A DNA stretch of 64,000 nt from an uncultured bacterium (GTDB taxonomy: Bacteria > Actinomycetota > Actinomycetes > S36-B12). Where the stretch lies: NCBI GenBank assembly GCA_963793105.1, contig CAWBZB010000004.1:156210-220209 (forward strand), in the 5' to 3' direction. This document shows, piece by piece, positions 7,262 to 45,248 of the stretch; positions within the stretch are counted from its first letter, which is position 1, and every line of letters begins with the position of its first letter. The position numbers and the translations under genes are program-made. The notes beneath the pieces were generated by a model. The model searched no databases and was not told where the DNA came from. It saw only the letters and a list, made by a program, of their open reading frames with translations.

Positions 7262-7321
7262 CGTTCGATGCTAGTCCGCGGTCCAGCCCCGTTCATGTCG
7301 TCCATGCGAGAGGGTGTCGTC

Positions 7322-8821
7322 ATGACGGATCACGACCCGCACCCCTCGAGCGCGGAGCTCGCCCACGTGACCGTGACGGAGCTCACCGCCGCCTTCGACG
7401 ACAGGCGCGTCACCGCCGCCGAGGCCACGTCCACGTACCTCGACCGGATCGACGGCCTCGACAGCGCGGAGAGCACGACGGCCCTGCGTTCCGTCCTCGC
7501 GGTCGCCGGGGCCGCTCGCGCGATCGCCGAGGAACGTGACGCTGAACGGCGGGAGGGACGACCGCGGGGTGTCCTCCACGGCATCCCGGTGGTGGTCAAG
7601 GACAACATCGAGGCCGTCGGACTGCCCGCTACGGCCGGCTCCCTGGCCCTGACCGGTCGCACGGTCGTGGCCGATGCGCCTGTGGTGGCGCGTCTGCGCG
7701 AGGCGGGGGCGGTCATCCTGGGCTCGACCAACCTCTCGGAGTGGGCGAACTTCCGGTCACCGCACTCCACGAGCGGATGGTCCGCTGTCGGCGGCCTGAC
7801 GGGCAACCCGTGGGCCCTGGATCGCAGCGCCGGTGGATCCTCCTCCGGCTCCGGCGCGGCCGTGGCCGCGGGACTGGCGACCGTCGCCATCGGCACCGAG
7901 ACCAACGGTTCCATCACCTGCCCGGCGGCCCTCAACGGGGTGGTCGGACTCAAGCCGACCGTCGGATCGGTGCCGACGGTCGGCGTCGTCCCCATCAGCG
8001 CCAGCCAGGACGTGCCCGGGCCGCTCGCCCGCACGGTGCGCGATGCGGCGCTCGTGTACGAGGTCATCTCCGCGCGCACGGACTGCGTGACGGCCTGCAC
8101 TCCGGCCGCGGCCACGCCGCTGACGGTCGGCGTCGTCGAGCAGTGGCTCTCCGGCGATGCCCGTACCGACGCGCTGTTCGCCGACACCGTGGCCCTGCTC
8201 GGCGGCCTCGTGGCCGGAGTGCGGGCGGTCGACGTGCCCCCCAACGACTGGCAGGTGAACAACGATCAGGTCGCCGTCCTCGTCGGAGAGCTCCTCGACG
8301 ACATGGACGCCTACCTGTCGGCCCGCGCCGGAATCGGTCCGCGCACGCTCGCGGAGGTCGTCGCCTACAACGTGGCCCACGCCTCCGACGAGCTGGCGGC
8401 GTTCGGCCAGGAGTACTTCGTGGACGCGGTCGCGGGAGGCGGGCGGGCATCGGAGGCCTATCGCCACGCCCGTGCGCGCAACGTGGAGTGGGCACGCGAC
8501 GCGTGCCTCGGGCCGGCGTTCGGCACCGGAGTCGACGTCCTCGTGGCTCCGGCCTACCGCCCGGCCTGGAAGTCCGACCTCACCCACGGCGATCAGGTGT
8601 CCGGCGGGGGCGCCGTGTGCACTCCCCCGGCGATCCTGGGCTGGCCGATACTCACGCTGCCGATGGGCACCGTGGACGGCCTCCCCGTCGGGTTCTCCAT
8701 CGTCGGGCGCGCTCACACGGAACCGATGCTCGTGGCGGTGGGGCATGCGCTCGAGCAGGCTCTCGGCCTCGCCGGGTCGGGGGCCCTGCGGCCCGCGTGG
8801 CGCCCACCCATGCGGGGCTGA
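7322..8821 (+). CDS. amidase (amidase-signature family)
   Basis: In-frame part of ORF 7016..8821. Amidase signature GGSSSGSGAAVAAGLATVAIGTETNGSITCPA. ATG 7322 is preceded by gagaggg; alternative ATGs at 7295 and 7304. Confidence 0.88.
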   Translation: MTDHDPHPSSAELAHVTVTELTAAFDDRRVTAAEATSTYLDRIDGLDSAESTTALRSVLAVAGAARAIAEERDAERREGRPRGVLHGIPVVVKDNIEAVGLPATAGSLALTGRTVVADAPVVARLREAGAVILGSTNLSEWANFRSPHSTSGWSAVGGLTGNPWALDRSAGGSSSGSGAAVAAGLATVAIGTETNGSITCPAALNGVVGLKPTVGSVPTVGVVPISASQDVPGPLARTVRDAALVYEVISARTDCVTACTPAAATPLTVGVVEQWLSGDARTDALFADTVALLGGLVAGVRAVDVPPNDWQVNNDQVAVLVGELLDDMDAYLSARAGIGPRTLAEVVAYNVAHASDELAAFGQEYFVDAVAGGGRASEAYRHARARNVEWARDACLGPAFGTGVDVLVAPAYRPAWKSDLTHGDQVSGGGAVCTPPAILGWPILTLPMGTVDGLPVGFSIVGRAHTEPMLVAVGHALEQALGLAGSGALRPAWRPPMRG

Positions 8822-8829
8822 GACGCGAA

Positions 8830-8860
8830 CCGGCCGCGTCCCCCTGGGGAACGCGGCCGG
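8830..8860. terminator. bidirectional hairpin between convergent genes
   Basis: ccggccgcgt (8830-8839) pairs with acgcggccgg (8851-8860). The loop contains an extra cccc/gggg extension. Lies between the amidase stop (8821) and the DUF4397 stop (8873). Confidence 0.55.
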
Positions 8861-8872
8861 CTGCGTGGCTGA

Positions 8873-9597
8873 CTAGCCCTTCTTGGGCAGGTTCAGCTTC
8901 ACGTACTGCACCGCCACCTGGTAGCCGCCGGGGGCGCCCCAGGCGTACGCGATGACGTTCCAGCCCTGACGGACCTTGAGCGGGATCGGACCCAGCGCCA
9001 CGCCGGCGAGCCCGGCACCGGCAAGACCCGCGGCCACCTGGTAGGTGCCCTTCTTCAGCGTCGTCTGCACCTGCTGGCCGTTCGCCAGTCCGGGGGCGGC
9101 GACATTGCCGTTCACGAAGATGTCGACGGGCGGGGCTGCGGCCAGGTGGCGCACCGTGACGCGACCCTCCGCGTTCTTGCTCTTCTTGGGCTTGGGCAGG
9201 GAGGCAATGTTGTTCTGGAACCCCTGGATGGAGGGCGTCCCTGCGCACTCAGGTAGGCGGCCACGGTGTAGTTCTTGCCGTTCTCCACCGCCTGGGTCAG
9301 CTGGAGAACCGGGGTGCCCGTGGAGTCCGGCGCGTCCGCGGGGAAGATCTCGAGGTCGTACGTAGCACCGGGCACCCGGACCTTCTTGAGGGAACCAGGC
9401 GCGAAGTTGTCGATCAGCAGGGTGTCATTGGCGTACACATCCACCACGAGACCGGGAATCCCGTGCAGAACGCCGACCACGGCCGTCTTGGGCTTGGGGT
9501 TCTTGGCCGCAGCGGCCGGGCTGGTCGCGACCAGTCCCAGCGGCAGTGCGATGGCCGCGGAGACCGCCGCCACCCGGAGGAAACGCTTTCCGAACAT
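8873..9597 (-). pseudogene. secreted DUF4397-repeat protein, interrupted by one frameshift near 9240
   Basis: N-terminal part in ORF 9112..9633: signal peptide MFGKRFLRVAAVSAAIALPLGLVATSPAAAA, ATG 9597 after aaaggga. C-terminal part in ORF 8873..9154, whose frame reads GTPSIQGFQNNIASLPKPKK... upstream of the listed start. The two frames join at about 9234-9246. Confidence 0.7.
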
Positions 9598-9743
9598 GTG
9601 ATCCCTTTCGTCGACCGCCCGCGGGCGGCTCACCGGTCGCCGGAGGGTCCGTGCTCGATTTTCCGGCTACCGGCAAGGGTGAAGCACCGCGCAGCCGTTG
9701 GCAAGTCGAATCGAAGCGACGTCGTATGGTCGAAGCGAGGAAC

Positions 9744-18832: not shown

Positions 18833-19528
18833 TCAGTGGATGCCGCACTCCGTCTTGTCGAAGCCACTCCATCGCCCTGCCCGCGGATCCTCTCCAGGCG
18901 CAACAGGACGCGTACACGGGCGACAGCCGACCGAGGGATACCCCTGAGCCATCAGCGCGCAGACGTCAACCGCGTTCTCGGCGGTGAAGATCGCCAAGTC
19001 GGCGTCCGACCAGTCGAGCAGAGGGGAGATCTTGACGACATTTCTTGTGGAGTCGAAGGCGATTTGGCGGGCATCGTGACGCGTGTCAGAGGACCCTCGC
19101 CGGAGTCCCGTGAGCCAGGCCTCCGATCCGGCGAGCACATCTTCGAGTGGCTGGACCTTGCGAAGTGAACAGCACAGGTCCGGGTCGCGGTTCCACAGGT
19201 CGGGTCCGAACCGCTCGTTCTGCTCCTCGACCGACAACGGACTCGAGACCGTGACAACGGTCAGTCCCGTCCTGCGACGGACCCGCTCGAGGGTGTCCAT
19301 GGTCTCCGGGAAGTGGTACCCCGTGTCGACGAAGACCACCGGAATGCCGGGTGCAATGGTCGCAATCAGCGTCGAAAGTGAGGTGTTCGCCATCGACTGG
19401 GTCGCAATGATGCGGTCGCCGAACTGCTCAGCCGCCCATCTGACGAGGTCGGCGGCCTCGGCGCCACGCAAGTCCGCCTCACCGCGCTCGGCGATAGCCC
19501 GAAGGGTCTCGGGCGAACGTCGCTGCAT
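18833..19528 (-). CDS. cysH: adenylyl-/phosphoadenylyl-sulfate reductase (thioredoxin-dependent), producing sulfite
   Basis: ORF 18833..19600. Motifs VDTGYHFPET and the C-terminal ECGIH, plus a CC...CxxC Fe-S pattern (DLCCSLRK; VGCRPCT) suggesting the APS-reductase type. I prefer ATG 19528 (MQRRSPE), which avoids overlap with the upstream gene. Confidence 0.85.
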   Translation of the reverse strand: MQRRSPETLRAIAERGEADLRGAEAADLVRWAAEQFGDRIIATQSMANTSLSTLIATIAPGIPVVFVDTGYHFPETMDTLERVRRRTGLTVVTVSSPLSVEEQNERFGPDLWNRDPDLCCSLRKVQPLEDVLAGSEAWLTGLRRGSSDTRHDARQIAFDSTRNVVKISPLLDWSDADLAIFTAENAVDVCALMAQGYPSVGCRPCTRPVAPGEDPRAGRWSGFDKTECGIH

Positions 19529-19548
19529 CGACCGAAGGGTTGTGTTCG

Positions 19549-21227
19549 TCACGACGATCCCGGCGTTCGCAGAGCCTTCAGGGTGCTCCAGGCCCGACAC
19601 GCAAGCTGCAGATTGAAGTTCACGTCGGGATCGCCGATGGGCAGTCCGGACACGTCGCGGATCCGCTGGAGACGGTACTTCAAGGTGCTGCGATGGATGA
19701 GGAGCGCCTCCGCGGTCGCGTCATACCTCCCCCCGCATTCCAGGTAGCGGTACAACGTCAGCACGAGTTCGGAGTGGCGGCGCTCGTCATACTCGATCAG
19801 GGGGCCGAGCCACTGCGTCACGAACTTCTCGATCTCACGGGAGTCCTCGGCAGATGCGAGAAGCCGGTACACGCCCAGGTCGTCGAACGAGACCACATGG
19901 TGGGCTCCGATCCTGCCGTTGAGCAGGTTCAGGGCCAGCACGGCCTCGCGATGCGAAGTCGGGAAGTCCTCGGGGCCGTGGGTGAGTCCGCCCACGCCGA
20001 TACGGCAGTTGCCGCCCGCGAGCTCGCGGACGACGGTTTCCTGCACGTCCTCCCAGCCGACGTCGCGGTCCGTGAGGAGGACGACGGTGCCGGCGCGCGC
20101 GACCAGCAGCGACCCGAGACCGAAATCCCTGGCCGCGCGCCTGACAGCAGTGAAGAACTGGTCCTCGTCGCGCGTGCGGCCGCGCCCCTCGAAGACGACG
20201 ACGCGATGCGGAAGGTTCAGGTCGTGCTGGAACGCCTCTCCTCGCTGGACGGCGGACTCCCCGCCCGTGCCGGATAGCAGGTCCTCGACGAGATCACGCC
20301 GGACCCGGACTTCGGTGTCGGCGACCGTGCGCTGTCGCGCAAGTTCCATCGAGAGAATGGTGGCCCCGTACTCGAGAGCCGCGAGGTCCTCGTTGCGCGC
20401 CGCCCGCTCGGGGTCGATCAGGGCGATGACGCCCACAGAGTCCGGCCGAGGTGACGCGGCACGCATGACACGTCCGGACTCCCACGTCGACTGTCCCTCA
20501 CGCAGGAGACGCCTGAGCAACTGCTCTCGCCGGGCCGGCGGGTCCTTGGAGAACGTCGGGGGATCACCGGGGCCAGCCCACGCCCGCAGGTTCCCGTAGC
20601 GGTCCTCGATGATCACGGGTAGCCCCGTGACCTCGTGCACGGCGTTGGCGATCCCTTCCATCCCCTCACCCGACGCGGCAGCCCGGGTGAGTCGATCGTG
20701 GATCTCGATTCGCTGGGCTAGGGCGCTGACGGTCGCCTCGAGCTGGGAATTGACCGAGGCGAGCACGGCCGCCGCGTTGCGCTCGATCTGGTGAAGTCGG
20801 CTGTTGCGGATGGCGGTGCCGATCTGCTGGGCGAGGACGCGGAGCAGGAAATGCCCGTCGTTATCGATTCCACGACCCGCGGCCACGACCATGTGCCCCA
20901 GCGAGGTCGAGATGCCGCCGAGGGAGTATGCCCAGGCCCATTGCGACCCAGGGATCGCGACGGCTCCCCCATCCGTCGGCAGATCCAGAATCGCAGGCGG
21001 CGCGGCGATGTCATCGTCACCAGGAGTCCACACGGTGGTCTCCCCGTCATGGGTGAAGACGCCGACCAGCCGGCAGGCCGCGAAGAGGGGGCTGCGCTGG
21101 CCCCGAGCCGGATGATCTGCTTCTCGTCCGAGCTCTCCGTCATCAGCATTGACAGGACGAGCAGCGCGTTGAGCCGCGAGAGCTGACCACGCATCTCGAC
21201 GTCGGTCGCGGCATCCACCGCTGTCAT
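19549..21227 (-). pseudogene. PucR-family transcriptional regulator (GAF-like N-terminus, PucR C-terminal HTH), frameshifted in a G5/C5 run at 21087-21091
   Basis: The C-terminal 494 codons are ORF 19549..21033, with HTH LLIHRSTLKYRLQRIRDVSGL. The true N-terminus MTAVDAATDVEMRGQLSRLNALLVLSMLMTESSDEKQIIRLGASAAPS lies in ORF 20718..21470. Frames join as ...AAP/LFAACRLVGVFTHDGETTVWTPG. Its ATG 21227 overlaps the MEDS stop (ATGA). Confidence 0.8.
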
Positions 21228-21847
21228 GCCGGTTCGGGCACCCGGTTGGCCAGGAACTCGTGCGGCTCGAGGTAGTACGGGTTGTCCAGCAGCGTGCCGC
21301 ACAGCAGGATCTTGGGATGCGTTCTGAGCAAATCGACGACTACTCGACCGTCGAACTGGTCCAGGTCGTATAGACAGACGATTACCTGCGGGTACAGGGG
21401 CAGGAAGGTGTTGAGCTCGGCCTCGTACTCGACGAGATCCTCGACACCCGGCAGCTGCCTGAGCGCCCACGTCATCTCGCCTACGCTGCGCGCGAACTCA
21501 TACCTGCTCTCCTTCATCGAGCCGCCGACGGCTCCATCCCAGAAATCGAGCATCGCCGGCTTGGAGAAGCTGCCGTCCCTGAGGTACGTGTCTTTCGAGC
21601 ACAAGACAGCCAGCTGGTCGTCCGCGTCCGCCGTGACCGGAGCGACTTCGGCCCCGAGCCGGGATCGCAACTCCTCCGGATCTGCCTGATCGAGGACGGC
21701 AATGCACTTGTCACCGCGATCCAGGCCCGCCTGCAGGTACGGGACGAGGATTTCGTCGCGACCAGCCGAGGTCCGGTAAAAGGCGCAGACATGGTCGCCG
21801 ACCGAGACACTCATGCCTGGTGGACCGAAGGACACTGAGTTCTCCAC
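21224..21847 (-). CDS. MEDS-domain (DcmR-type sensory domain) protein
   Basis: ORF 21224..21847. GTG 21847 lies 8 nt after aaggagg. GDHVCAFY...YLQAGLDRGDKCI...VCLYDL pattern typical of MEDS domains. Confidence 0.7.
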   Translation of the reverse strand: MENSVSFGPPGMSVSVGDHVCAFYRTSAGRDEILVPYLQAGLDRGDKCIAVLDQADPEELRSRLGAEVAPVTADADDQLAVLCSKDTYLRDGSFSKPAMLDFWDGAVGGSMKESRYEFARSVGEMTWALRQLPGVEDLVEYEAELNTFLPLYPQVIVCLYDLDQFDGRVVVDLLRTHPKILLCGTLLDNPYYLEPHEFLANRVPEPA

Positions 21848-21936
21848 GAGGTTCGCCTCCTTGCGTGATGTCTGCCGAGCCTAGCTCCGATCAGACCATT
21901 CACATAGCCCTGCTAAGACGATTAGAAGGCATAGCT

Positions 21937-21953
21937 TCGTCCCACAGGGACGA
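21937..21953. promoter_or_regulatory. palindrome GTCCC-ACA-GGGAC upstream of the MEDS-PucR-cysH genes; operator candidate, or alternatively the terminator of the aldehyde dehydrogenase gene
   Basis: tcgtccc-aca-gggacga at 21937-21953. The core matches GTCCY-N3-RGGAC, which is seen twice at 30679-30707. Lies ~90 nt upstream of the MEDS start and 7 nt past the stop at 21960. Confidence 0.4.
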
Positions 21954-21959
21954 GGTTTG

Positions 21960-23391
21960 CTACTTGCCGTAGCGCGCCCAGTGCGCGGAGAAGATCTCGT
22001 CGGGATCCGCCGGACTCGGAGCGATGGTCCGCGAGACCCACGTCAGATTGACGAAGTGCCGAGCGTTCACGTTCTCCGTGGTGATGTTCCCGCCCCAGGT
22101 GCCGCAGCTCAGACTCAGGGTGAACGGGAGGCCGTTTCGCGCACTGCCGGCCCCCTCGTTGAGATTCTGGTTGACCATGACCCTGGCCGTGCGCGTGCCG
22201 AAGGCGAGGGCGTCAACGTGCTCGTCCGAGGCGGTGTGGATCCCGCAGGTATGCCCGAGGCCCTGATAGGCGGTGATGGCGTTCACCAGCCCGACCGCTT
22301 CATCGATGTCGAGCCGTAGCGGTACACCGCCAGGACGACCGAGAGCTTCTCGCCGGAGAATGGGTGAGCCGGGCCGGCACCATCCTCCTCCACCATGAGG
22401 AAGGTTGCGCCATCGGGAAGGGTGATGGCAGCCAGATCGGCGATGTGCTGGGCTGACTTGGCGATGACGTCAAGGGTCGGGATGTGCCCGCCATCGGGCC
22501 ACATCGCGGCCTGGAGCCGGGTCTTCTCGTCGGGCGTGCAGAGGTAGCCTCCCGCCGCCTGCAGGCGAGCCAGCAGGTCTTCGTAGACGGCGTCGGCAAC
22601 GATCAGAGAGTTGTCGGCAAGGCAGCTCGTCGCCAGGTCGAACGTCTTTCCCGCGGCGATCGTGGCTGCCGCGTCCGCTAGATCTGCGGTCTCGTCGACC
22701 ACATGCACCGAGTTCCCCACCCCGACGCCGTAGGCGGGAGTCCCGGAACTGTAGGCGGCCTTCACCATGGCGGCGCCGCCCGTGGCCACGATGAGATCGG
22801 CCTGGCGCATCAACTCCCGGGTCTTGTCGATCGACGGGGAGACGAGGCCCTGGATCAGGTCTTCGGGCGCACCGACCTGCGCGCAGGCGGCGCGCATGTA
22901 CTCGACGGAGAGCTCGCTGGTGCGCCTCGTGCGGGGATGGGGGGCGACGACGATGGCGTTGCGTCCCTTCAGCGCCATGAGCGCTTTCATGGGGGGGGTG
23001 GCATCCGGACCGGTCGTCGGGATGAGGGCCGCGACGACACCGACTGGCTTGGCGATCTTCACGAGGCCGCGCTCGGGATCCTCCTCGACGACGCCCACGG
23101 TGCGGATACTGCGCATGTCGGCCAGCAGCCCGGTCACGCGCCGGTGGATCTTCGTCACCTTGTCGTCGTACGTTCCGAAGCCGCCCTCGTCCACGGCGAG
23201 TCGAGCGAGCGTCTCGGGGTGATCGCCACCCACTATCGCCCACCCGACCGCGGTCACCAGTGCGTCGATCCGCTCCTGGTCCCAGTCGCTGATCGCCTCC
23301 GAGCCGCGCGGGCTCGAGCCACCACGGCGGCGATCTCATCGGCAACGGTCATTTCGGTTGCGGGCGCGGGAGAAGTCTCGGTGCTCGTCAT
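21960..23391 (-). pseudogene. CoA-acylating aldehyde dehydrogenase (EutE/PduP/SucD/SauS-like), two frameshifts
   Basis: Three fragments. ORF 23254..23463 holds the N-terminus MTSTETSPAPATEMTVADEIAAVVARARAA. ORF 22283..23257 holds the core with catalytic Cys in FDLATSCLADNSLIV. ORF 21960..22286 holds the C-terminus NAITAYQGLGHTCGIHT. Junctions read at ~23298-23304 (..ARAA/EAISDWDQERIDALVTAVGW) and ~22311-22316 (..VYRYG/LDIDEAVGLVNAI). Confidence 0.8.
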
Positions 23392-23511
23392 AGCGGACAG
23401 GCTGGGCCCTGATGCCCCGCCACGGCACCGGCCCAATTGGGCGAAGGTCAGCCGGTATCTCACCCTCCGGGGACATGTGCATCCTGCGGGACAGAAGCAA
23501 TCGTTCGACGC

Positions 23512-25091
23512 ATGACCACGACAGGAATGAACGTACGCAACGACGCCGTGAGCAACGCGGAGTGGCGGAGCCTGATCGACCGATTCGAATCGGGAGAACT
23601 CCAGGGCCCGATCCTCAACATCGACGAGGACTCGGACGTCGAGTACGACGCCATCTTCGTCGGCGGTGGAGCCGGTGGAAGATTTGGTTCCGCCTATCTC
23701 AGGGCGCGGGGCGGCCGGCAGCTACCGTCGACCGCTGGCCCTTCCTGGGCGGCTCGTGTCCGCATCAGGCCTGCGTCCCCCACCACCTGTTCTCGGAATC
23801 GGCGCGCGAACTGGACCTCGCGCGCATCCTGTCGGGCCGGCTGTGGTTCCCGGAGTTCGACGAATCGCGTGCGTCGATTCTCGACCTGGTCGAGCTGTTC
23901 AAGTCCGGCCGGAATAGCGCGCATGCCTTCATGAACTACCAGAGCAAGGAACAGCTGGGGATGGAGTACATCCTCAATGCCTCTGCCACGGTCATCGATG
24001 CCCACACCGTCGAGGTGGCCGGGCGCCGGTTCACCGCGAAGAACCTCGTGCTGGGCACTGGCGCGAGCACGGTGCCGCTCGACGTCCCGGGGATCGACCT
24101 CCCGGGAGTATTCGACTACGCGACCCTCATCGAGGATCTCGACTACGACCCGAAGTCGTGCGTGATCATCGGCGGGTCGAAGGTCGCGATCGAGTACGGC
24201 TCCTTCTTCCAGGCAGCCGGCTGCCAGACCACGATCCTCACGCGCAGCCCGCTGATGACGACGAAGAGCCTGCATCATGTGGACGAGGACGTACGGCAGT
24301 ACGTGGTGAGGGGAATGCGCGATCGGGGCATGTCGATCCTGGAGGGCGCCCATCCGATCGCCGTCGTCGGCACCAACCGGGCCACCGGCGTGACCGTGCG
24401 GCTTGCCGACGGGTCCACCGTGGATCTGCCGTGCGACATGGTCTTCATTGGTACGGGCGAGAGGGCGAACTCCGACCACTATGTCGATGTGCTCGGGGTC
24501 GCCGTCGATGATCGCGGGTCCATCGTCGTCGACGATCACATGCGCACGTCCGTCCCGAACGTCTATGCCGTGGGTGACCTCATCGGCCCCCCGATGGAGA
24601 TGTTCAAGGCTCGTAAGTGCGGGATGACGGCGGCTCGGAACATCATGGGCGAGGACTATTCGTTCGATTTCACCGAGTACCCGGATTTCCTGCATTCGAC
24701 CTACGAGGTCACGTGGGTCGGCTTGTCGGAGGCCGAGGCCCGGGCAACGTTCGAAGACGTCATCGTGATCCAGATGCCGCCACCCGGCGTTCCCCACGGA
24801 GACATCCCGCTGCCGTGCGCCGAGGGCACGATGCTCCTCGCGTTCACTCACCCGGAGAAGACCGGGTTCCAGAAGGCGATCTTCGACGCCAAGAGCCGCA
24901 AGCTGGTCGGAATTCACCATGTCGGCTTCGGGGCCAAGGACTCGTTCCAGTATCTGGACTTCCTCATCCACCGAACTGAGGGACTCACCATCGACGAACT
25001 GGCGGAGATGAACGAACTCTTCCTCAACTCGGGCCACTTCATCCAGTTGTCCCGGCTTCGCGCCGGCGCCATGGAGCTCAGCTCGCTGTAG
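23512..25091 (+). pseudogene. xecC: 2-oxopropyl-CoM reductase (carboxylating), 2-KPCC homologue; one frameshift at ~23721-23726
   Basis: N-terminus in ORF 23437..23934: MTTTGMNVRNDAVSNAEW...YDAIFVGGGAGGRFGSAYLRARGGRQL. The rest is in ORF 23412..25091: TVDRWPFLGGSCPHQACVPHHLF ... VPNVYAVGDLIGPPMEMFKARK ... ELFLNSGHFIQLSRLRAG. It is near-collinear with my recollection of Xanthobacter 2-KPCC, including CxxxxC and the Phe...His replacement of the DSOR His-Glu dyad. Confidence 0.85.
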
Positions 25092-26602
25092 CCCCATCGG
25101 TTGCCAGGGACCGGGCCACGTCAAGGAGCGATGCTCTCGAAGCGTTGTTGGCTGCTCGGCGCTCGACGCGCCAGGCGTCCTCGACCGCAACGAGGGCGCG
25201 AAGAGAGGCGATCTCGTCGCGCACCGCCTGTGGGGCGCATCCGCCAGCCTCGCGTCGAGACGCCACGAGCGTGGCGGGGTCGAGAACGGCTGCCACATCG
25301 AAGGTCGAGCCGGGGTCCGGCATGGCAGAGCCAGTGACGATCCGGGCGGCATCGTCGAGCGATGCCGCCGTGATCCCGCTCGCGTCCTCGAGTGAACGCG
25401 CGACGGCACGCCCCACCACGCGGTAGGCGGTCCGGTAGTCCAGGCCGACACGGAGGACCAGTTCGTCCGCCAGATCGGTGGCGGCGATCTGCTCGTCCTG
25501 AGCGGAACGGGACAGTGCTGAGGTGTCGATGGCGATCGTGCGGATCACTGCCGTCGCCAGTTCGACGATGCGACGTGACAGCACCAGGGACGACGAAACC
25601 TCGCCATACGTGTGCAGCCAGTTGTCCGTCTGCGCCGAGGGTGTCCTTGCAGTGGCCATGAGACCGGTGAGACGCCCGATCAGAGTGCTTGCGCCCGAGC
25701 GGATCACGGCCAGCGCGTACGGGTTGCGCTTCTGCGGCATGAGGACGGACGCCCGGCAGAGGGAGGCGTCCAGGGTGACGAAGCCGAAGGCAGGGCTCGC
25801 GAAGATCTGGAGGTCCTCGGCCAGCCGGTCCGCCGTCAGGGCGGCCTGAACGGCCGCGGCGACCACGTCGATCAGCCCGTCCAGATTCCACATTGTGTCG
25901 CGGGTGTTGCGCCCGACCGCAGCGAAGCCGAGGAGCTCGGCCAGGCCGTCGCGGTCCAGCCCGAGGCGCGTGCCGCCCACGCCCCCCGAGCCGGCGGGCG
26001 AGATGTTCGACCGACGAGTAGCACTGGCGCAGGCGGGGCAGGTCGCGGCCCGCCTCCTCGGCGAACGAGGCGATGTAGTGCCCGAAGGTGGAGGGCTGCG
26101 CCGGCTGCAGGTAGGTCATGTCCGCCCAGAGCGCATCGGCGGTCTCGTCGGCGCAGTCGGCCAGCGCCTGCGTGAAGTCCGAGGTGGCCTGCGCCAAGTC
26201 GAGGATCAACTCCCGGGTGGCGATTCGGAAGGCGATGCGGCCGGCCTCACGCCGAGTCCGACCGAGGTGGACCCAGCCGGCCAGGTCGCCGACTCGCCTG
26301 GTGAGCTCCTTCTCTCGGCTGTTGTAGGCGTCACCGAGCATGACGTCATAGGGGAACTCCTCGACCGGGACAGCGCCGAGCTCGAGAAGGGCAGCGAGAA
26401 GCGTCGGGGCGCGCTCAGCCGGCAGCAGCTCCTGTCGGGCGAGCGTGATGACATGTGCGAGGTCGGCGAGCGTGAGGCCGTCGTGCAGCAGCGGGGCGTC
26501 GCTGAGCTCAAGGGCGTATCCGGCGGCCACCATCTCCGGCGCCGGCCCCGACGAGATCCTGCCGTCGGTACCCAGGTAGCCCTCGGGCGTTGGCGCGCTC
26601 AC
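25078..26602 (-). pseudogene. aspartase/fumarase-superfamily lyase (argininosuccinate-lyase-like), CoM-biosynthesis type; one frameshift at ~26007-26012
   Basis: GTG 26602 follows aaggaggtg and overlaps the upstream stop (GTGA). The N-terminal half reads in the frame of ORF 25121..27460 (VSAPTPEGYLGT...TYLQPAQPSTFGHY...QCYSSV). The C-terminal half is ORF 25078..25980 (NISPAGSGGVGGTRLGLDR...SVLMPQKRNPYAL). Confidence 0.8.
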
Positions 26603-27578
26603 AAGCCACCTCCTTGTGCGAACAGCGTAGGGGCCCCGCCAGTGACGAGGAAGACTGTCGGCCCGCGCTGAGCTCCCGTCCGGGCCTGCGCCAGCAAGGC
26701 TGCCATGGCCTTGGCCCCGAACACGGGGTCGAGGATGACCGCCTCCCTGCCGGCGACGAGATCCGCAGCAGAACGGCCCTCGTCCGAGGCGATGCCGTAC
26801 CCGGGACCGATCCAGCCGTCGACCACCTCCACCGCGGTCCGCGGCGGGGCCTGGATCCCGAGCAGGGCAGCCGTCCCTGAGGCGAGGTCGTAGACCCGGG
26901 TGCGGCACTCCGCGACGGGTCGGCTCACGGTGACGCCGACGACACGGGACAGCATGTCGGCGCCCACGGCCGCGACGAGCCCTGCCTGCGTGCCGCAGGA
27001 CCCGGTTCCGAGCCATACCGTGGGTTTCTCGATCCGCCACCTCGCGACACTGGGCGTCCAGCTCCGTGGCGGCGGCAAAGTAGCCGAGGCTGCCGCGGGC
27101 GGTCGCCCCCCCTCGGGGGAGCACGAGGGGGCGTCGACCCTGCGCACGAAGGCGATCAGCGGTCTCCTCGATCAGCTGGTCGACCGACGCACGGTCCTTC
27201 GTTCCGGTCCACCTGATGCGGGCGGCGGTCCACTCGTGCAGTAGCAGGTTGCCGCGCGCCGCCTCGGGTGCGCTCCCGTACAAGCAGAGCTCCCGACTCC
27301 AGGCCGCATCGGCGGGCCGCCAGCGCCGCGAGCAGGGCCCAGTTCGACTGCGGCCCCGAGCCCGTGACGAGGACATCGCAGCCGTCCTCCATCGCCGCGC
27401 CGAGCAGGAACTCCAATGCTCGGACCTTGTTGCCGCCGAGACCCACGGCGGTGAGGTCATCGCGCTTGAGCCAGATCGGGATCCCGGCGGCCGCCGAGAG
27501 CCGGGGCGCCTCCTGCAGAGGCGTCGGGAACAGGCCCAACGTCACCCGCGGGATCCGATCCAGGACGCCGTCAGGCAT
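26599..27578 (-). pseudogene. PLP-dependent enzyme of the ACC-deaminase/D-cysteine-desulfhydrase family; two frameshifts
   Basis: Fragment 1 (frame of ORF 27156..27980): MPDGVLDRIPRVTLGLFPTPLQ...WLKRDDLTAVGLGGNKVRALEFLL, with the PLP Lys. Fragment 2 (frame of ORF 25121..27460): ELCLYGSAPEAARGNLLLHEW...GGATARGSLGYFAAATELDAQ. Fragment 3 (ORF 26599..27147): IEKPTVWLGTGSCGTQAGL...VFLVTGGAPTLF. Junctions at ~27292-27294 (extra g in a G-run) and ~27040-27050. Confidence 0.8.
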
Positions 27579-28912
27579 GGTCGGGATCGAGAACGCTGTC
27601 AATGAAACGAGAAATAGATCCCAAGGCGTTCCGCGGATCCAGCAGCCTGTCGATCTCCTCGTCGTCGAGGTCCGCCAGGCGAGCGTCTGCGCGAAGTGCG
27701 GAACGAAGGTCGACGTCAGCCTCGCGACCGGCGAGCGCTGCCTCGTACACGATGCGGTGCGCGGTGTGTTTCCCCACTCGATCGGCCAGTGCGCGCATGA
27801 CCGGCTCGGACATGACGTAGCCGCGTTGGGCTTCGAGGTTGCGGCGCATCCGCTCCGCGTCGACCTCGAGGCCGTCGAGGATCCTGACCGCGGCCGCGAC
27901 GCTGACGCCTGCGTAGAGGCATGCCTCGGGAAGCAGGACCCACTCGGACTTCCAGGATCGCCCGTCGCGCTCGTGGCCATGGATCATCGCCTGTGTGGCG
28001 AGATCAGCATCGGCGCGAACGAAACGCGCCAGGCTGCCGACATGCTCGGACAGCTCGGGATTGCGCTTGTGGGGCATCGTGATGCTGCCCACCGTGCCTG
28101 GAGTCAGCGGCTCGCGCAGCTCCCCGATCTCGGACCGCTGGAGCTCGTAGACCTCGTCTCCGATCTTGGCGACCGTGGCCGTGATCATCGCGAGCAGGCT
28201 GACGAACTCGGCGAGGCCGTCACGTGCGGTGAGCCACGGGATCAGCGGACGCCCAGGCCGAAGCCGCCGCGCGAACGAGGCGAGCATGGGTTCGGCTCGA
28301 TCACCCCAGAACTCCATGGATCCCAGCCCGCCGCCCAGTTCGACGAGCTCACGCCGCGGACGGCCCTGCTCCAGCCGTTCGAGGTGCCGGTCGATCTCAG
28401 CGGTCCAGACGGCCGTCTTGAAGCCGAACGTGATGGGCAGGCCGGGCTGACCGTGCGTGCGTCCACACATGATGGTGTCGCGGTGCACCCGCGTGAGGTC
28501 CGCGGCCGCGGCCCGCGCCCGGCGAAGGTCTCGTTGATGATGTCGCGACCCTGCGCATGGCCAGCGCGGACCAGGTGTCGGTGAGGTCCTGAACTGTGGC
28601 ACCGTAGTGACCCACTCGCGGGCCTCCTCCGGAGTCGCGCTCGAACAGCCGGATGAGCCCGAGGGTCGAGTGTCCGGTCATGCGGGTCAGCTCGCCGACC
28701 TCGTTCGGGTCCGGCTGCCAGGCCTGGATCGTGCTCCGGATGGCCCCAGCGGCCGGGGCGGGAACGAGCCCAACCTCAGCCTGCGCCTCGGCGAGTGTCG
28801 CAAGGGATCCGAGCCAGGCGCTCAGTCGACCCTCGTCGGTGAACATCGCGTGGATCTCCGGCGTGGACCAGAGATGGCCGTAGATGGCGGAGTCGACGAG
28901 GTGGGCGCTCAT
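27571..28912 (-). pseudogene. second aspartase/fumarase-superfamily lyase (adenylosuccinate-lyase/carboxymuconate-cycloisomerase-like); at least one frameshift at ~28523-28550
   Basis: N-terminus MSAHLVDSAIYGHLWSTPEIHAMF...GATVQDLTDTWSALAMRRV is in ORF 28397..29119. The rest is in ORF 27571..28602: RARAAAADLTRVHRDTIMCGRTHGQPGLPITFGFK ... GSITMPHKRNPELSE. ATG 28912 overlaps the upstream stop (ATGA). Confidence 0.8.
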
Positions 28913-29837
28913 CTGCGGGCAGCGGTCCCGATGCCCGCAGGTTCCACGACGGGCCCGACCCCCGTCAGCAGCCGGAGGGCCAACCTGACCTCGTCGAGGG
29001 TCGACCCCCACGGAACGACGGCACTGTCTCCGTCGCGCTCGACGCCACGTTCGAGCAGGCAGCACTTGGTCAGCACCAGCGTGCCATGCTCGATCTCCGC
29101 TGCTCGGCGGTTCGGGCACAGGTCCACCTGAGGCGGCTGGTCGCCGTAGAAGTGTCGGTGGAACTGCAACGCAGCGCTCGCACCCGATCAGCGTCCAGTC
29201 CTCGCGGCGCTCAGGTCGGGTGTCGAGGAAGGAGACCTCGCCGGGCAGACCACGCCTGAGCCGCGGCAGGGAAGCAGGTAGCCCGCGGCAGGGTGGTCCC
29301 GTGCCATGAGACGTATGTCCACGGCGTCGAGCACGAGATCTATCGGCGGCAGCTCGTCATCGAATTCGAGGGCCTGCCTTGCCATCTCAAGCAGCTTGGC
29401 CGGTTCCGGCGGGACCACCTCGGTGACGACGATGCGCACGGGCAACGGCCGCCAGATGACGTTGACGTGCTCGTACCTGCCTTTGACCGCATACGCATCG
29501 ACATCGTCACGGCCGAGCGCCCGGCCGCGGCCGCCAGGGCGGTTGCGTTGCCGACGTCGGTGCTCGCGTCCTCGATCCATGCCGTGCGATCCGGTGCCGC
29601 GAGAACACGTGCCTCCGTGACCGGCGAGAAGAGCGGCTCGAAGGACTCCTTGAGCACTGCCACGAGGGCGTGGTCGTCGCCGTTGGCGAGGAGCAGCCAC
29701 TCAGTGCGCCGGTAGACCTCGCGGCCGATCAGGTACTCAAGGATCGCCGACTCGTCAGCCAAGGGGATCTCGACCTCCTGCATCGACAGGCCGCGGTAGG
29801 GGCGAGTGATGCTGTTGGGAGGCGGGGTCGGGATCAC
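28909..29837 (-). pseudogene. unrecognised Cys-rich protein embedded in the CoM biosynthesis operon; about three frame disruptions including an in-frame TGA at 29188-29190
   Basis: Fragments are ORF 29340..29837 (GTG start, MIPTPPPN...EYLIGREVYRRTEWLLLANGDDHALVAV...), ORF 29188..29700 (...VDAYAVKGRYEHVNVIWRPLPVRIVVTEVVPPEPAKLLEMARQALEFDDELPPIDLVLDAV...) and ORF 28909..29169 (FHRHFYGDQPPQVDLCPNRRAAEIEHGTLVLTKCCLLERG...). A high-GC3 alternative frame, LPGEVSFLDTRPERREDWTLIGCERC, bridges the last two. The stop overlaps the next ATG (ATGA). Confidence 0.55.
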
Positions 29838-29850
29838 TCGTCAGATCCTG

Positions 29851-30627
29851 TCACGTGAGGGTGGCGAGTCGGGCCACGGAGGCCGTGTCGGCACGCAGGC
29901 CCAGGCGCAGCGTCTCGAGGGGCAGCACCTCGTCCGGAGGGATGTTCCCGAGATTCACCTCGGGCCCGATCGTGCGCACGAACCAGGCCTGCTGGGCCTT
30001 GTGGGGCGCCTCGAAGATGATGCGATCGACAGGAATCCGACTGGTGAGCGTGTCGATGAGCGTGTCACGTACCGCTCCGTCCCCGAGGTAGATGCCGACG
30101 TTGCCGCTCTCGCGGCCCTCGGCGATCACCCACTGAGCACCCGCCTGCAGATCGGACTCCATCTCGGCGAGCCACTCCGCGGGAACCACAGGAGTGGCGG
30201 CATCCTTCGAGCCCACTTCAGCGGCGACCACGAAGTCCTCGCTGAGCGTGCGGATCAGCTCCTCCTTGCGGGCGGCATCAAGGGCGCCGAGACCGTTGGA
30301 CACCTCCACGGCGGTGATGCCACTGGCCAGGGCCCAGTCGCGCAGCTCCCCGATCCGGCCCTGCGCCGCCGCGATCTCGAGCAGGGTGCCCCCGAGGCTC
30401 ACCAGCACGCCGGCCTCGCGATACGCCGTCACGCGTTCGAACAGGCGAGGATCGACATAGCCGATACCCCACCCGATCTTGACGATGTCGATGAGCCCCG
30501 CCGTGCTCTCAAGGTGGTCCCGCGTGGAAGCCAACCCCAGGCCCTTGTCCAGCACATGCGTGAGTCCCCTGGTCCGGGGCTTGGACTGGCGGGGTGGCAG
30601 CTCGAAGGTACGTCGGTGGGCCCACAT
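29851..30627 (-). CDS. comA: phosphosulfolactate synthase (ComA family; PEP + sulfite), first step of CoM biosynthesis
   Basis: ORF 29851..30627, intact. ATG follows aaggaga. THVLDKGLG...IDIVKIGWGIGYV...VSLGGTLLE...VEVSNG pattern of the ComA (PF02679) family. Confidence 0.85.
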   Translation of the reverse strand: MWAHRRTFELPPRQSKPRTRGLTHVLDKGLGLASTRDHLESTAGLIDIVKIGWGIGYVDPRLFERVTAYREAGVLVSLGGTLLEIAAAQGRIGELRDWALASGITAVEVSNGLGALDAARKEELIRTLSEDFVVAAEVGSKDAATPVVPAEWLAEMESDLQAGAQWVIAEGRESGNVGIYLGDGAVRDTLIDTLTSRIPVDRIIFEAPHKAQQAWFVRTIGPEVNLGNIPPDEVLPLETLRLGLRADTASVARLATLT

Positions 30628-37479: not shown

Positions 37480-37633
37480 CCTCGTCCGCTGCTGTCAGCG
37501 AAACCACACATTTTCACCCTGCCGGGTCGGGGCTTGTCGCCACTTCTGGCCTTCGAGGGCGAGGCAGCCACGCCCGGACTGCACATACGTTTCTTGGACC
37601 ACGTTCCCGGAGTGGATCCCCTAAGGAGTCTCT

Positions 37634-38737
37634 ATGAAGGTTGGATCGAGCGACATCCTGCTGCCCACCACGATGGTCGGCAACTACCCGAACCCACGGT
37701 GGTACGACGGCCACGCGTTCGCCACGTACCCCAAGGGCGAGTTCGTCTACGACGCCATCAGTCGCGAGGCATACGAGGATGCCGTGGGCGCAATCGTCCA
37801 CGATCAGGAGTCGGCCGGACTCGACATCATCAGCGACGGCAAGGTCTACGGGGGCGACTCGCCGTACGGCCAGATCCTCTACCACTACATCGAGCGGATG
37901 TCCGGCTACAAAGCGTCGGGGCCCCCCATCGGGCTGCCCATCTACTCGACCCTGTACAGCCCGACGGCCGTGGGAGAGGTACGCCGCGAGCACCCGTTCC
38001 ATGGCGCCGCGCTGCGCGCGATGAAGAAGGCCACCAAGAAGCCGGTCAAGGTCTCCTACACCGGCATGCAGGTGCTGGCGGCCGCCAGCACGAACCAGTA
38101 CTACCCCGAGGTTCGCGACCTCGCGATCGCGATCGCGAAGGCCTTCAATGAGGACTTCAAGGAACTCGCCGACAACGGCTGCGACATCATTCAGATCGAC
38201 GAGTTCGTGTGGCCGTACGGAATGGGCGATTGGGAGATCGAGGTGTTCAACACCGCAGTCGAGGGTGTGGGATGTCAGATCTGGACCCATACCTGCTGGG
38301 GCAACTACTCCGGCACGCCAGGCTACTTCCCCGACGACGAGGAGACCGAGTTCGGCGCTTGGGTCCTCGACAAGCGGCCTGAGGACGCTCCCGCCCCCGA
38401 GCGGGCACTGGCCATCTTCCCGCACGTGAAGAACGCCAACATGACCGCACTCAATTACGAGGTGGGCCGGACCGGCGAGGATGACCTGAAGCCTCTCGTC
38501 GACAACAACTGGGACAAGGACTTCGTGGCGGGCATCATCGATGTCAAGAGCACGATCACGGAGACGGCGGACGAGGTTGCCGACCGCATCCGGATGGTCC
38601 TGAAGTACGTTCCCGCAGAGCGACTCGGTCTCAGCACGGACTGCGGTCTCATCAACCTGCCGCGCATGGTGGGCTACGGAAAGCTCCGCGCACTTGCGGA
38701 CGGTGCGGCGATCGTGCGCAAGGAACTGAACGCCTAG
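37634..38737 (+). CDS. etnE: epoxyalkane:coenzyme M transferase (MetE-C-terminal-domain zinc alkyltransferase)
   Basis: ORF 37634..38737 (367 aa). ATG follows taaggag. MetE-like barrel with Zn-ligand motifs H-x-C (IWTHTCWGN) and C (LSTDCGL). Size and N-terminus (MKVGSSDILLPTTMVGNYPNPRW) fit EaCoMT, and the context holds CoM genes. Confidence 0.8.
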   Translation: MKVGSSDILLPTTMVGNYPNPRWYDGHAFATYPKGEFVYDAISREAYEDAVGAIVHDQESAGLDIISDGKVYGGDSPYGQILYHYIERMSGYKASGPPIGLPIYSTLYSPTAVGEVRREHPFHGAALRAMKKATKKPVKVSYTGMQVLAAASTNQYYPEVRDLAIAIAKAFNEDFKELADNGCDIIQIDEFVWPYGMGDWEIEVFNTAVEGVGCQIWTHTCWGNYSGTPGYFPDDEETEFGAWVLDKRPEDAPAPERALAIFPHVKNANMTALNYEVGRTGEDDLKPLVDNNWDKDFVAGIIDVKSTITETADEVADRIRMVLKYVPAERLGLSTDCGLINLPRMVGYGKLRALADGAAIVRKELNA

Positions 38738-44539: not shown

Positions 44540-45248
44540 GTGGTCGCTCGAGTCACCGAACTGCCCGATGGGCCGGCCGATGAGACCGGACTGACCCCGC
44601 GACAGCGGGCCATCCTGGCCGTCATCCGAGACACGGTCGAGACTCGTGGCTACCCTCCCAGCGTCCGGGAGATCGGGGAAGGCGTCGGTCTTACCTCCCC
44701 GAGCAGCGTGGCGCATCAGCTCGGCACCCTGGAGCGCATGGGGTATCTGCGGCGCGACCCGAATCGCCCACGCGCCCTCGTCGTGGCCGACGCACCCGCT
44801 GTCCCCGTCGAGCCCACTCAGGCCCAGGGCCTCCACGTCGTCGACGGCCCGGACAGCGCGGTCCACCGACCGGAGACTGCGTACGTGCCGGTGGTGGGCC
44901 GGATCGCCGCCGGCGGTCCGATCCTCGCGGAGCAGGAGGTGGAGGCGGTGTTTCCCACTCCCCCGCGATCTCGTCGGCGAGGGCGACCTGTTCATGCTCA
45001 AGGTGGTCGGCGACTCGATGATCGACGCCGCGATCTGCGACGGCGACTGGGTGGTCGTCCGGCAGCAGAACACCGCCGAGAACGGCGACATCGTGGCCGC
45101 CCTGCTGGACGACGAGGCGACGGTCAAGACCTTCAAGCGTCGGGACGGCCACGTGTGGCTCATGCCGCACAACCCGGCCTACGCACCGATCCTGGGCGAC
45201 CACGCCACCGTCATGGGCAAGGTCGTCACCGTCCTGCGACGCGTCTGA
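44540..45248 (+). pseudogene. lexA: LexA repressor, reading frame broken by an extra T in a TTT run at 44951-44953 (or an assembly indel)
   Basis: N-terminal wHTH and cleavage site ([21 protein letters not shown]) are in ORF 44540..45586. The C-terminal peptidase domain ([22 protein letters not shown]...TVKTFKR...) is in ORF 44646..45248. Removing one t restores ...[12 protein letters not shown]. Confidence 0.85.

What the first reader, a model, noticed from the sequence alone, without database searches (positions are those of the whole stretch)
28909..29837. Unrecognised Cys-rich ORF inside the CoM biosynthesis operon, with an in-frame TGA explained by two compensating indels
- Between comA and the second lyase lies a ~309-codon reading frame that I cannot assign to any family. 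Its parts read EYLIGREVYRRTEWLLLANGDDHALVAV..., ...RYEHVNVIWRPLPVRIVVTEVVPPEPAKLLEMARQ..., then a Cys-rich C-terminus LPCRGSG..C, GCERC, CPN and KCC.
- It is translationally coupled at its 3' end (ATGA) and starts 13 nt after comA, so it belongs to the operon.
- ORFs 29188..29700 and 28909..29169 are in the same frame, separated by TGA 29188-29190.
- The ~80 nt around that TGA code far more plausibly in another frame (LPGEVSFLDTRPERREDWTLIGCERC, high GC3).
- This suggests a +1/-1 pair of indels rather than a simple nonsense codon.
- A conserved extra gene in a CoM operon is a candidate for an uncharacterised step or a maturation factor.
Basis: partly seen in the sequence, partly recalled or inferred. 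Interest (0 to 1): 0.65.

Follow-up and report, generated by a model that had tools for sequence, protein, structure and literature searches.

The report
xcbA CoM gene with assembly frameshifts
The "unassignable" Cys-rich reading frame is xcbA, the already characterised iron-sulfur enzyme for the last step of bacterial coenzyme M synthesis, and its in-frame stop and frame changes are almost certainly single-base assembly errors, so the finding is ordinary.

Summary
It is not unassignable. Its pieces match consecutive parts of Pfam DUF7714. The repaired protein matches NCBIfam NF052538 "XcbA family" over its full length (388 bits, cutoff 150). It is 45.7% identical (E 7e-82) to Xaut_5051, the X. 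autotrophicus Py2 XcbA shown in 2022 to be a [2Fe-2S] protein that reduces sulfoethanethioaldehyde to CoM.

The pair of compensating indels around TGA 29188-29190 is confirmed: one base missing at 29249/29250 and one extra at 29172.

All three indels are private to this assembly. An independent contig that differs in xcbA by only 2 substitutions lacks them and carries a different private indel. Neighbouring xcb genes and the housekeeping gene lexA carry similar single-base indels. The corrected gene has dN/dS 0.07.

The frameshifts are therefore best explained as consensus errors, not biology. The corrected product has 309 aa and five family-invariant Cys.

Verdict: a known gene and a sequence artefact, of low interest.

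The parts
28909..29837 (-). xcbA (DUF7714 / XcbA family) as it stands in the window: 929 nt in four frame segments. After correcting three single-base indels it is 930 nt and encodes 309 aa.
   Evidence: Pfam pieces. NCBIfam NF052538, 388 bits, and Pfam 274 bits on the repaired protein. Corrected translation aligns without gaps at 92-93% identity to intact 309-aa proteins.
29516..29518 (-). Frameshift 1: one C missing (GGGCGCCTCGG read as GGGCGCTCGG), codon 107/108.
   Evidence: Four-way alignment: the gap is in the window only; L007, L003 and L004 all have the base. Mapped.
29249..29250 (-). Frameshift 2: one A missing between these two bases (GTG GAT CTG read as GTGG-TCTG), codon 197. Upstream member of the compensating pair.
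   Evidence: Private to the window.
29172..29172 (-). Frameshift 3: one extra G (CGC TCG TTG read as CGCTGCGTTG), codon 223. Downstream member of the compensating pair; it creates the spurious 'GCERC'.
   Evidence: Private to the window.
29188..29190 (-). In-frame TGA, seen only because the 78 nt between frameshifts 2 and 3 are read out of frame. It is not a codon of the true frame.
29059..29268 (-). Cys-rich part holding the five family-invariant cysteines: C191 (29268-29266), C220 (29182-29180), C241 (29118-29116), C259 (29064-29062) and C260 (29061-29059). These are candidate [2Fe-2S] ligands and/or redox thiols.
   Evidence: Invariant in 32 full-length sequences of 27-75% identity. Conserved in Xaut_5051 and Xaut_5070. 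Coordinates.
29851..30627 (-). comA / xcbB (phosphosulfolactate synthase). An extra T at 30606 shifts the first 7 codons; the true start is probably GTG 30625.
   Evidence: Pfam ComA 5e-79. Indel.
27571..28912 (-). xcbD-like adenylosuccinate-lyase-family gene, overlapping xcbA by ATGA. It carries several window-private indels (28635, 28609, 28546, 28536, 28262, 28249).
26599..27578 (-). xcbE-like PLP enzyme (D-cysteine desulfhydrase / ACC deaminase family). It lies in three frames because of extra bases at 27294 and 27036.
25078..26602 (-). xcbC-like argininosuccinate-lyase-family gene, split by an extra A at 26007.

Best explanation
The region encodes XcbA, the fifth enzyme of the bacterial coenzyme M pathway.

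The pathway, as published for X. autotrophicus Py2:
- XcbB/ComA adds sulfite to PEP.
- XcbC eliminates phosphate to give sulfoacrylate.
- XcbD adds cysteine.
- The PLP enzyme XcbE releases sulfoethanethioaldehyde.
- XcbA, a [2Fe-2S] protein, reduces that thioaldehyde to CoM.

The window gene is an actinobacterial orthologue in the conserved order comA-xcbA-xcbD-xcbE-xcbC, next to the epoxyalkane:CoM transferase cluster that consumes CoM.

The in-frame TGA and the three frame changes come from single-base insertion/deletion errors in the assembled consensus of this contig. The real gene is an intact 930-nt ORF encoding 309 aa.

Shown here: family membership, orthology to the characterised protein, operon linkage, and that the indels are private to this assembly.

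Taken from the literature: the [2Fe-2S] cluster and the catalytic step.

Inferred: the five invariant cysteines (C191, C220, C241, C259, C260) provide the cluster ligands, and the CC pair may supply a redox-active thiol.
For: Identity:
- The three raw ORF pieces hit PF24830 at profile positions 1-93, 94-183 and 207-277.
- The repaired protein hits NCBIfam NF052538.2 'CoM_XcbA_fam' with E 1.9e-116, 388 bits against a cutoff of 150, covering profile 4-290 of 293. It hits PF24830 at 1-277 of 280.
- Xaut_5051 on pXAUT01 starts MNKPEKIEPKPIA, exactly what the published xcbA-F primer encodes, and has 9 Cys as the paper states. The corrected window protein is 45.7% identical to it over 289 aa, E 7e-82.

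Context:
- The gene order is the same in M. chubuense NBB4 and in intact metagenomic relatives of 88-90% identity.
- In 80 genome loci, XcbD is adjacent in 70/74, comA is in the locus in 65/75, and all four other xcb genes are present in 40/49.

Artefact:
- L007, an independent assembly, differs from the window in xcbA by 2 substitutions and 4 indels. The 3 window indels are absent from L007, L003 and L004. L007 has its own private indel at 29696.
- Thirteen window-private indel events occur across the 5.6-kb operon and none is shared with L007.
- lexA, a housekeeping gene 15 kb away, is split the same way.
- A short-read Logan contig encoding the identical 445-aa neighbouring oxidoreductase has intact genes: ComA 257 aa, DUF7714 309 aa and ADSL 448 aa.
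- Corrected xcbA has dN/dS 0.069 against L003, like its intact neighbours at 0.02-0.19. There are no nonsense substitutions.
Against: - The frame anomalies are concentrated at about 19.6-29.8 kb rather than spread evenly over the 64 kb. A local biological cause cannot be excluded without the reads.
- L007 is itself a noisy assembly and diverges from the window upstream of about 25 kb, so it is not a perfect reference.
- The exact corrected 309-aa sequence, in four variants, is not in the 15-billion-protein collection. No independent record of precisely this intact protein was found.
- The [2Fe-2S] cluster and the activity have only been shown for the Xanthobacter protein, at 46% identity.
Confidence: 0.88

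Rival explanations
1. The frameshifts are real. In this strain the CoM biosynthesis operon (xcbA, D, E, C) and adjacent genes are decaying into pseudogenes, while the CoM-consuming epoxyalkane pathway genes remain intact. This would imply CoM auxotrophy, cross-feeding or loss of the pathway.
For: - Indels cluster at 19.6-29.8 kb and affect seven consecutive genes, whereas 30.8-42.5 kb has none against L003.
- One of the three xcbA copies in X. autotrophicus pXAUT01 is also split in two frames in the deposited sequence, so disrupted copies exist in finished records.
Against: - No indel is shared with the near-identical L007, which has different private indels.
- The ratio of 3 indels to 2 substitutions in xcbA does not fit natural decay.
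- There are no nonsense substitutions or larger deletions.
- dN/dS is 0.07.
- lexA also carries a frameshift.
- A relative with the identical neighbouring protein has intact genes.
Confidence: 0.07
2. The gene is expressed through recoding: programmed ribosomal frameshifting and/or TGA read-through (Sec or Trp).
For: Only the bare observation of an in-frame TGA and frame changes in a conserved gene.
Against: - Intact homologues at 88-93% identity have no frameshift or TGA at these positions.
- The sites are not conserved even in L007.
- Three separate shifts plus similar ones in neighbouring genes have no precedent as programmed events.
- No slippery motif is evident at the sites.
Confidence: 0.01
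3. The ORF is a new, uncharacterised accessory or maturation factor of the CoM pathway, distinct from any known enzyme.
For: - Many database copies are still named 'hypothetical protein' or DUF7714.
- No solved structure resembles it.
Against: - It scores 388 bits against the curated XcbA model.
- It is orthologous to the biochemically characterised Xaut_5051.
Confidence: 0.02

Closest known systems
XcbA of Xanthobacter autotrophicus Py2 (Xaut_5051 / XAUT_RS25610; Wu et al. 2022, PMC9457059)
   Same: - Same family (NF052538, PF24830); 45.7% identity over 289 aa.
- Same five invariant Cys in the motifs PCR(G/S)G, GCERS, CP and KCC.
- Also encoded directly beside comA/xcbB with xcbC, D and E.
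   Different: - The gene order differs: comA-xcbA-xcbD-xcbE-xcbC here, xcbA-B-C-D-E in Py2.
- The actinobacterial protein lacks the roughly 20-residue N-terminal extension and 4 of the 9 Cys.
- The locus here is chromosomal rather than on a megaplasmid.
- The activity of this orthologue is untested.
Actinobacterial 'hypothetical protein' between comA and the ADSL-family gene in the ethene/vinyl chloride clusters of Mycolicibacterium chubuense NBB4 (WP_006247532.1) and Nocardioides sp. JS614
   Same: 57-60% identity and identical operon position and order, with the same flanking oxidoreductase, SDR and CoA-transferase genes.
   Different: - Those copies are intact ORFs on plasmids of cultured alkene oxidisers.
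- The window copy carries three single-base indels and sits among housekeeping genes.
Pfam DUF7714 (PF24830)
   Same: The whole corrected protein is one DUF7714 domain, covering 1-277 of 280 profile positions.
   Different: Pfam still lists the family as of unknown function, while NCBIfam and the 2022 paper give it one.
Sulfoacetaldehyde dehydrogenase proposed as the functional analogue in Methylohalobius crimeensis (PMC11507031)
   Same: Proposed to fill the last reductive step of CoM synthesis in a bacterial CoM/epoxyethane cluster.
   Different: That paper reports no significant sequence similarity to XcbA. It is an analogue, not a homologue.

Membership tests
XcbA family (NCBIfam NF052538 / Pfam PF24830 DUF7714) | Full-length match to the curated family profile above its cutoff | tested here: met
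   388.4 bits against a cutoff of 150, profile 4-290 of 293. PF24830 274 bits against 25. The raw pieces hit consecutive profile segments.
XcbA family (NCBIfam NF052538 / Pfam PF24830 DUF7714) | Homology to the experimentally characterised XcbA of X. autotrophicus Py2 | tested here: met
   Xaut_5051 was identified by the primer-encoded N-terminus MNKPEKIEPKPIA and its 9 Cys. BLASTP gives 45.7% identity over 289 aa, E 7e-82.
XcbA family (NCBIfam NF052538 / Pfam PF24830 DUF7714) | Encoded in a CoM biosynthesis cluster with comA/xcbB, xcbC, xcbD and xcbE | tested here: met
   Window order is comA-xcbA-xcbD-xcbE-xcbC. The same order occurs in L001 and L003-L006 and in most of 80 genome loci.
XcbA family (NCBIfam NF052538 / Pfam PF24830 DUF7714) | Conserved cysteines of the family (five invariant positions) | tested here: met
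   C191, C220, C241, C259 and C260 are all present in the corrected protein and invariant in 32 diverse sequences.
XcbA family (NCBIfam NF052538 / Pfam PF24830 DUF7714) | Redox-active [2Fe-2S] cluster | not testable with these tools
   Shown only for the Xanthobacter protein by UV-vis, EPR and voltammetry (PMC9457059).
XcbA family (NCBIfam NF052538 / Pfam PF24830 DUF7714) | Catalyses reduction of sulfoethanethioaldehyde to CoM | not testable with these tools
   Literature only.
XcbA family (NCBIfam NF052538 / Pfam PF24830 DUF7714) | Uninterrupted ORF of about 300 aa | tested here: not met
   As given, the window sequence has three frameshifts and an apparent in-frame TGA. All three are private to this assembly, and correcting them restores a 309-aa ORF.
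Genuine pseudogene | Disruptions reproducible in independent sequence of the same lineage | tested here: not met
   L007 has 2 substitutions in 930 nt and lacks all three indels.
Genuine pseudogene | Relaxed selection: raised dN/dS, nonsense substitutions, larger deletions | tested here: not met
   dN/dS is 0.069 against L003, the same range as intact neighbours. The only disruptions are 1-2-nt indels.
Genuine pseudogene | Read-level support for the indels | not testable with these tools
   No reads are available.

The most novel reading that the evidence does not exclude
The single-base indels are real. This chromosomal copy of the CoM biosynthesis operon (xcbA, D, E, C, plus the adjacent carboxylase-like, aldehyde dehydrogenase and regulator genes) would then be freshly inactivated, while the epoxyalkane:CoM transferase side stays intact. 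That would make this actinobacterium dependent on externally supplied CoM, or in the act of losing the pathway.

A weaker and separate point concerns the XcbA family as a whole. A confident AlphaFold model (pLDDT 93) has no detectable fold relative in the PDB, so it may be a new Fe-S reductase fold.
Probability: 0.06. Interest if true: 0.3.

Novelty: already known. Interest (0 to 1): 0.08.

Why it matters
It matters little for biology.
- The gene is the known last enzyme of the bacterial CoM pathway, and its disruption is best explained by assembly error.
- The practical lesson is about annotation. In this contig at least eight genes between 21 and 30.6 kb, plus lexA, are broken by 1-2-nt consensus errors. 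ORF-based annotation would wrongly call the CoM operon pseudogenised, and a reader would invent spurious Cys motifs.
- Many database copies of XcbA are still labelled 'hypothetical' or DUF7714, so the link to the 2022 biochemistry is easy to miss.
- The five invariant cysteines and the absence of any PDB fold relative are useful pointers for anyone studying how XcbA works.

Tried and rejected
- Megablast of the region against PLSDB plasmids found no near-identical record.
Exact look-ups of four variants (M or V start, R211 or H211) were all absent from the collection. The closest listed cluster member is 93% identical.
- DNA of the short-read Logan contig with intact genes was not retrievable.
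- The first genome-contig scan, with a very diverse alignment, failed for lack of a conserved stretch. It worked with a closer set. The window's own genome did not appear among the best 80 loci.
- A profile search of PDB sequences gave nothing below E 0.6. Foldseek against the PDB gave no match at E <= 1e-3, and the best TM normalised to the query was 0.23. No fold assignment was therefore possible. Model coordinates are not exposed, so Cys-Cys distances could not be measured.
- Selenocysteine or read-through, and programmed frameshifting, were considered and rejected because the sites are absent from all relatives.
- A simple GC3 frame plot was too coarse. It was replaced by a codon-position HMM, which still cannot by itself distinguish gene boundaries from frameshifts.

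Full report
**Observation.** The - strand of 28909..29837 carries a coding region directly after comA.
- comA is ORF 29851..30627 (Pfam ComA, 5e-79).
- The start GTG at 29837 lies 13 nt after the comA stop.
- The terminal TGA (28911-28909) overlaps the ATG (28912-28910) of the next gene as ATGA. The same 13-nt gap and 4-nt overlap occur in an intact relative (L003).
- ORFs 29188..29700 and 28909..29169 share a frame and are separated by TGA 29188-29190.

- The span is 929 nt, which is not a multiple of three.
- The N-terminal third (ORF 29340..29837) is in a different frame from the middle part.

**What it is.** Each of the three raw ORF pieces hits Pfam PF24830 (DUF7714) at consecutive profile positions: 1-93, 94-183 and 207-277. 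Positions 184-206 lie in the third frame.
- A repaired translation matches PF24830 over positions 1-277 of 280 (1.5e-81).
- It also matches the curated NCBIfam model NF052538.2 'CoM_XcbA_fam' with 388 bits against a cutoff of 150, over 4-290 of 293 positions.

Wu et al. 2022 (PMC9457059) worked out the bacterial CoM pathway in X. autotrophicus Py2.
- XcbB/ComA forms phosphosulfolactate.
- XcbC forms sulfoacrylate.
- XcbD adds cysteine.
- XcbE, a PLP enzyme, releases sulfoethanethioaldehyde.
- XcbA then reduces this to CoM. They describe XcbA as a protein 'not homologous to any known protein', with nine Cys and a redox-active [2Fe-2S] cluster.

I identified that protein on pXAUT01 as Xaut_5051. 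It starts MNKPEKIEPKPIA, exactly what the published forward primer encodes. It has nine Cys and sits directly upstream of a phosphosulfolactate synthase gene. The corrected window protein is 45.7% identical to it over 289 aa (E 7e-82). The ORF is therefore xcbA, a known and characterised step, not an unassigned family.

**The frameshifts.** tblastn with proteins from the syntenic M. chubuense NBB4 cluster showed frame changes in xcbA, in the PLP enzyme (two), in the ASL-like lyase and in the carboxylase-like oxidoreductase. The genes on the other side (oxidoreductase, two SDRs, two CoA-transferase subunits, CoA ligase) are single HSPs.

Close metagenomic relatives (XcbA 88-90% identical, 309 aa) carry the whole cluster intact. 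Nucleotide alignment to L003 (83.8% identity over 19.9 kb) places three indels in xcbA:
- a missing base at about 29517;
- a missing base at 29249/29250;
- an extra base at 29172.

Further 1-2-nt indels lie in xcbD, xcbE, xcbC, the carboxylase-like gene, the aldehyde dehydrogenase and the regulator. None lies in coding sequence between 30.8 and 38.8 kb.

The decisive comparison is with L007, an independent ENA contig found through the identical 445-aa oxidoreductase.
- It is 98-100% identical to the window over 25.5-34 kb.
- Within xcbA the two differ by 2 substitutions and 4 indels. The three window indels are absent from L007, L003 and L004. L007 has its own private deletion at 29696.
- Across the operon, 13 indel events are private to the window and about 5 are private to L007. 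None is shared.

Three further results point the same way.
- A short-read Logan contig with the identical oxidoreductase has intact ComA (257 aa), DUF7714 (309 aa) and ADSL-like (448 aa) genes.
- Outside the cluster, lexA is split at about 44958. Its DNA-binding domain is in one frame and its S24 peptidase domain is in another.
- Corrected xcbA has dN/dS 0.069 against L003, within the range of its intact neighbours.

Private, non-reproducible single-base indels outnumber substitutions, and there are no nonsense substitutions. A housekeeping gene is also hit. This is the signature of consensus errors in an assembly, not of gene decay or recoding.

One caveat remains. The anomalies are concentrated at about 19.6-29.8 kb, and I could not inspect reads.

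**The corrected gene.** Restoring a C at 29516-29518 and an A at 29249/29250, and removing the G at 29172, gives a 930-nt ORF of 309 aa. It aligns without gaps at 92-93% identity to intact proteins.
- Five Cys remain: C191, C220, C241, C259 and C260.
- All five are invariant in 32 full-length sequences of 27-75% identity, together with G120, P143, P144, L149, P190, L205, D206, G219, P242 and W277. H124 is about 94% conserved.
- They are also conserved in both intact Xanthobacter paralogues.
- I infer that four of them ligate the [2Fe-2S] cluster and that the CC pair may contribute a redox thiol. This is untested.

**Distribution and linkage.**
- More than 2299 proteins in the 90%-clustered collection match the family.
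- So do 468 clusters at 50% identity.
- At least 498 species-representative genomes encode a relative, mostly Actinomycetota.
- In the best 80 loci, xcbD follows immediately in 70/74.
- comA is in the locus in 65/75 and directly upstream in 58.
- All four other xcb genes lie within 7 kb in 40/49.

The linkage is what defines the known family.

**Structure.** An AlphaFold2 model of the 92%-identical P0001 is confident (pLDDT 93.2, pTM 0.89). Neither a sequence profile search of the PDB (best E 0.6) nor Foldseek (no hit at E <= 1e-3, best query-normalised TM 0.23) finds a solved relative. This agrees with the paper's statement that XcbA resembles no known protein. It is a feature of the family, not of this window.

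**Verdict.** The compensating pair is real in the sequence, but a third shift was missed and two Cys are artefacts. This is an already known gene disrupted by assembly errors, and its interest is low.

Noticed in passing
window 44608-45245 (+): lexA is split by a frameshift near 44958. The LexA DNA-binding domain (PF01726, 1.9e-21) is in one frame and Peptidase_S24 (PF00717, 1.5e-28) is in the next. A broken housekeeping gene points to consensus errors in this contig.
   Followed up: partly
window 30600-30627 (-): comA carries an extra T at 30606 within its first 7 codons. The extra base is absent from L007, L003 and L004. An upstream ATG (30627) masks the shift; the true start is probably GTG 30625 (VGPPTYLELPP...).
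   Followed up: yes
window 21084-28635: Single-base indels relative to intact relatives also break other genes: xcbD (28635, 28609, 28546, 28536, 28262, 28249), xcbE (27294, 27036), xcbC (26007), the 2-KPCC-like oxidoreductase (23723), the aldehyde dehydrogenase (23300, 22312) and the PucR/GGDEF_2-HTH regulator (21084). No coding indels occur at 30.8-38.8 kb.
   Followed up: partly
window 18949-19601 (-); L003 19734-20411; L004 14620-15420: A PAPS reductase (CysH-like) gene sits next to the CoM/epoxyalkane cluster here and in the related contigs. It could supply the sulfite that ComA consumes.
   Followed up: no
window 1-64000: The cluster comprises EaCoMT 37631-38737, CoA ligase, CoA transferases, SDRs and xcb genes. 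It is chromosomal, flanked by housekeeping genes: cysE/cysK, nrdJ/nrdR, lexA, hflX, fhs, a formate dehydrogenase and miaA/miaB. I recognised no alkene monooxygenase genes in the HMM frame translations of the stretches outside about 19-35 kb, which were not searched against protein families, or among the genes identified inside it.
   Followed up: partly
L002 ~6930-7850, L088 21385-22326 and 43893-44819 (pXAUT01): X. autotrophicus Py2 pXAUT01 has three xcbA paralogues. Xaut_5051 is the one cloned in the 2022 paper. Xaut_5070 is the second. The third, directly upstream of xcbB Xaut_4872, is unannotated and split into two frames in the deposited sequence.
   Followed up: partly
L008-L087 (genome contigs): XcbA relatives occur in at least 498 species-representative genomes. 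Most are Actinomycetota, including Nanopelagicales-labelled MAGs, Acidimicrobiia, Pseudonocardia, Kribbella, Nocardioides and Kineosporia. In the best 80 loci the order is usually comA-xcbA-xcbD-xcbE-xcbC, and an EaCoMT-like gene lies within 7 kb in 26 of the 49 loci with full flanks. CoM metabolism looks far more widespread than in the few cultured alkene oxidisers.
   Followed up: partly
window 20798-25500 vs L007 3-4700: Identity between the window and L007 drops from about 99% (25.5-34 kb) to 75-92% upstream of about 25 kb. This could be a recombination breakpoint between strains or a chimeric join in one of the assemblies. xcbD (27.6-28.9 kb) also has a local cluster of 66 substitutions.
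   Followed up: no
window 8829-9635 (-): Two DUF4397-domain halves lie in different frames and abut at about 9239. This is either one gene split by another frameshift or two adjacent small genes.
   Followed up: partly
L001 9900-10281 (M. chubuense NBB4 pMYCCH.01): In RefSeq the ADSL-family gene after xcbA is annotated as only 329 aa, with a 380-nt gap, and comA as 229 aa. Relatives have 448 aa and 257 aa. These may be start-site or frameshift problems in that record too.
   Followed up: no
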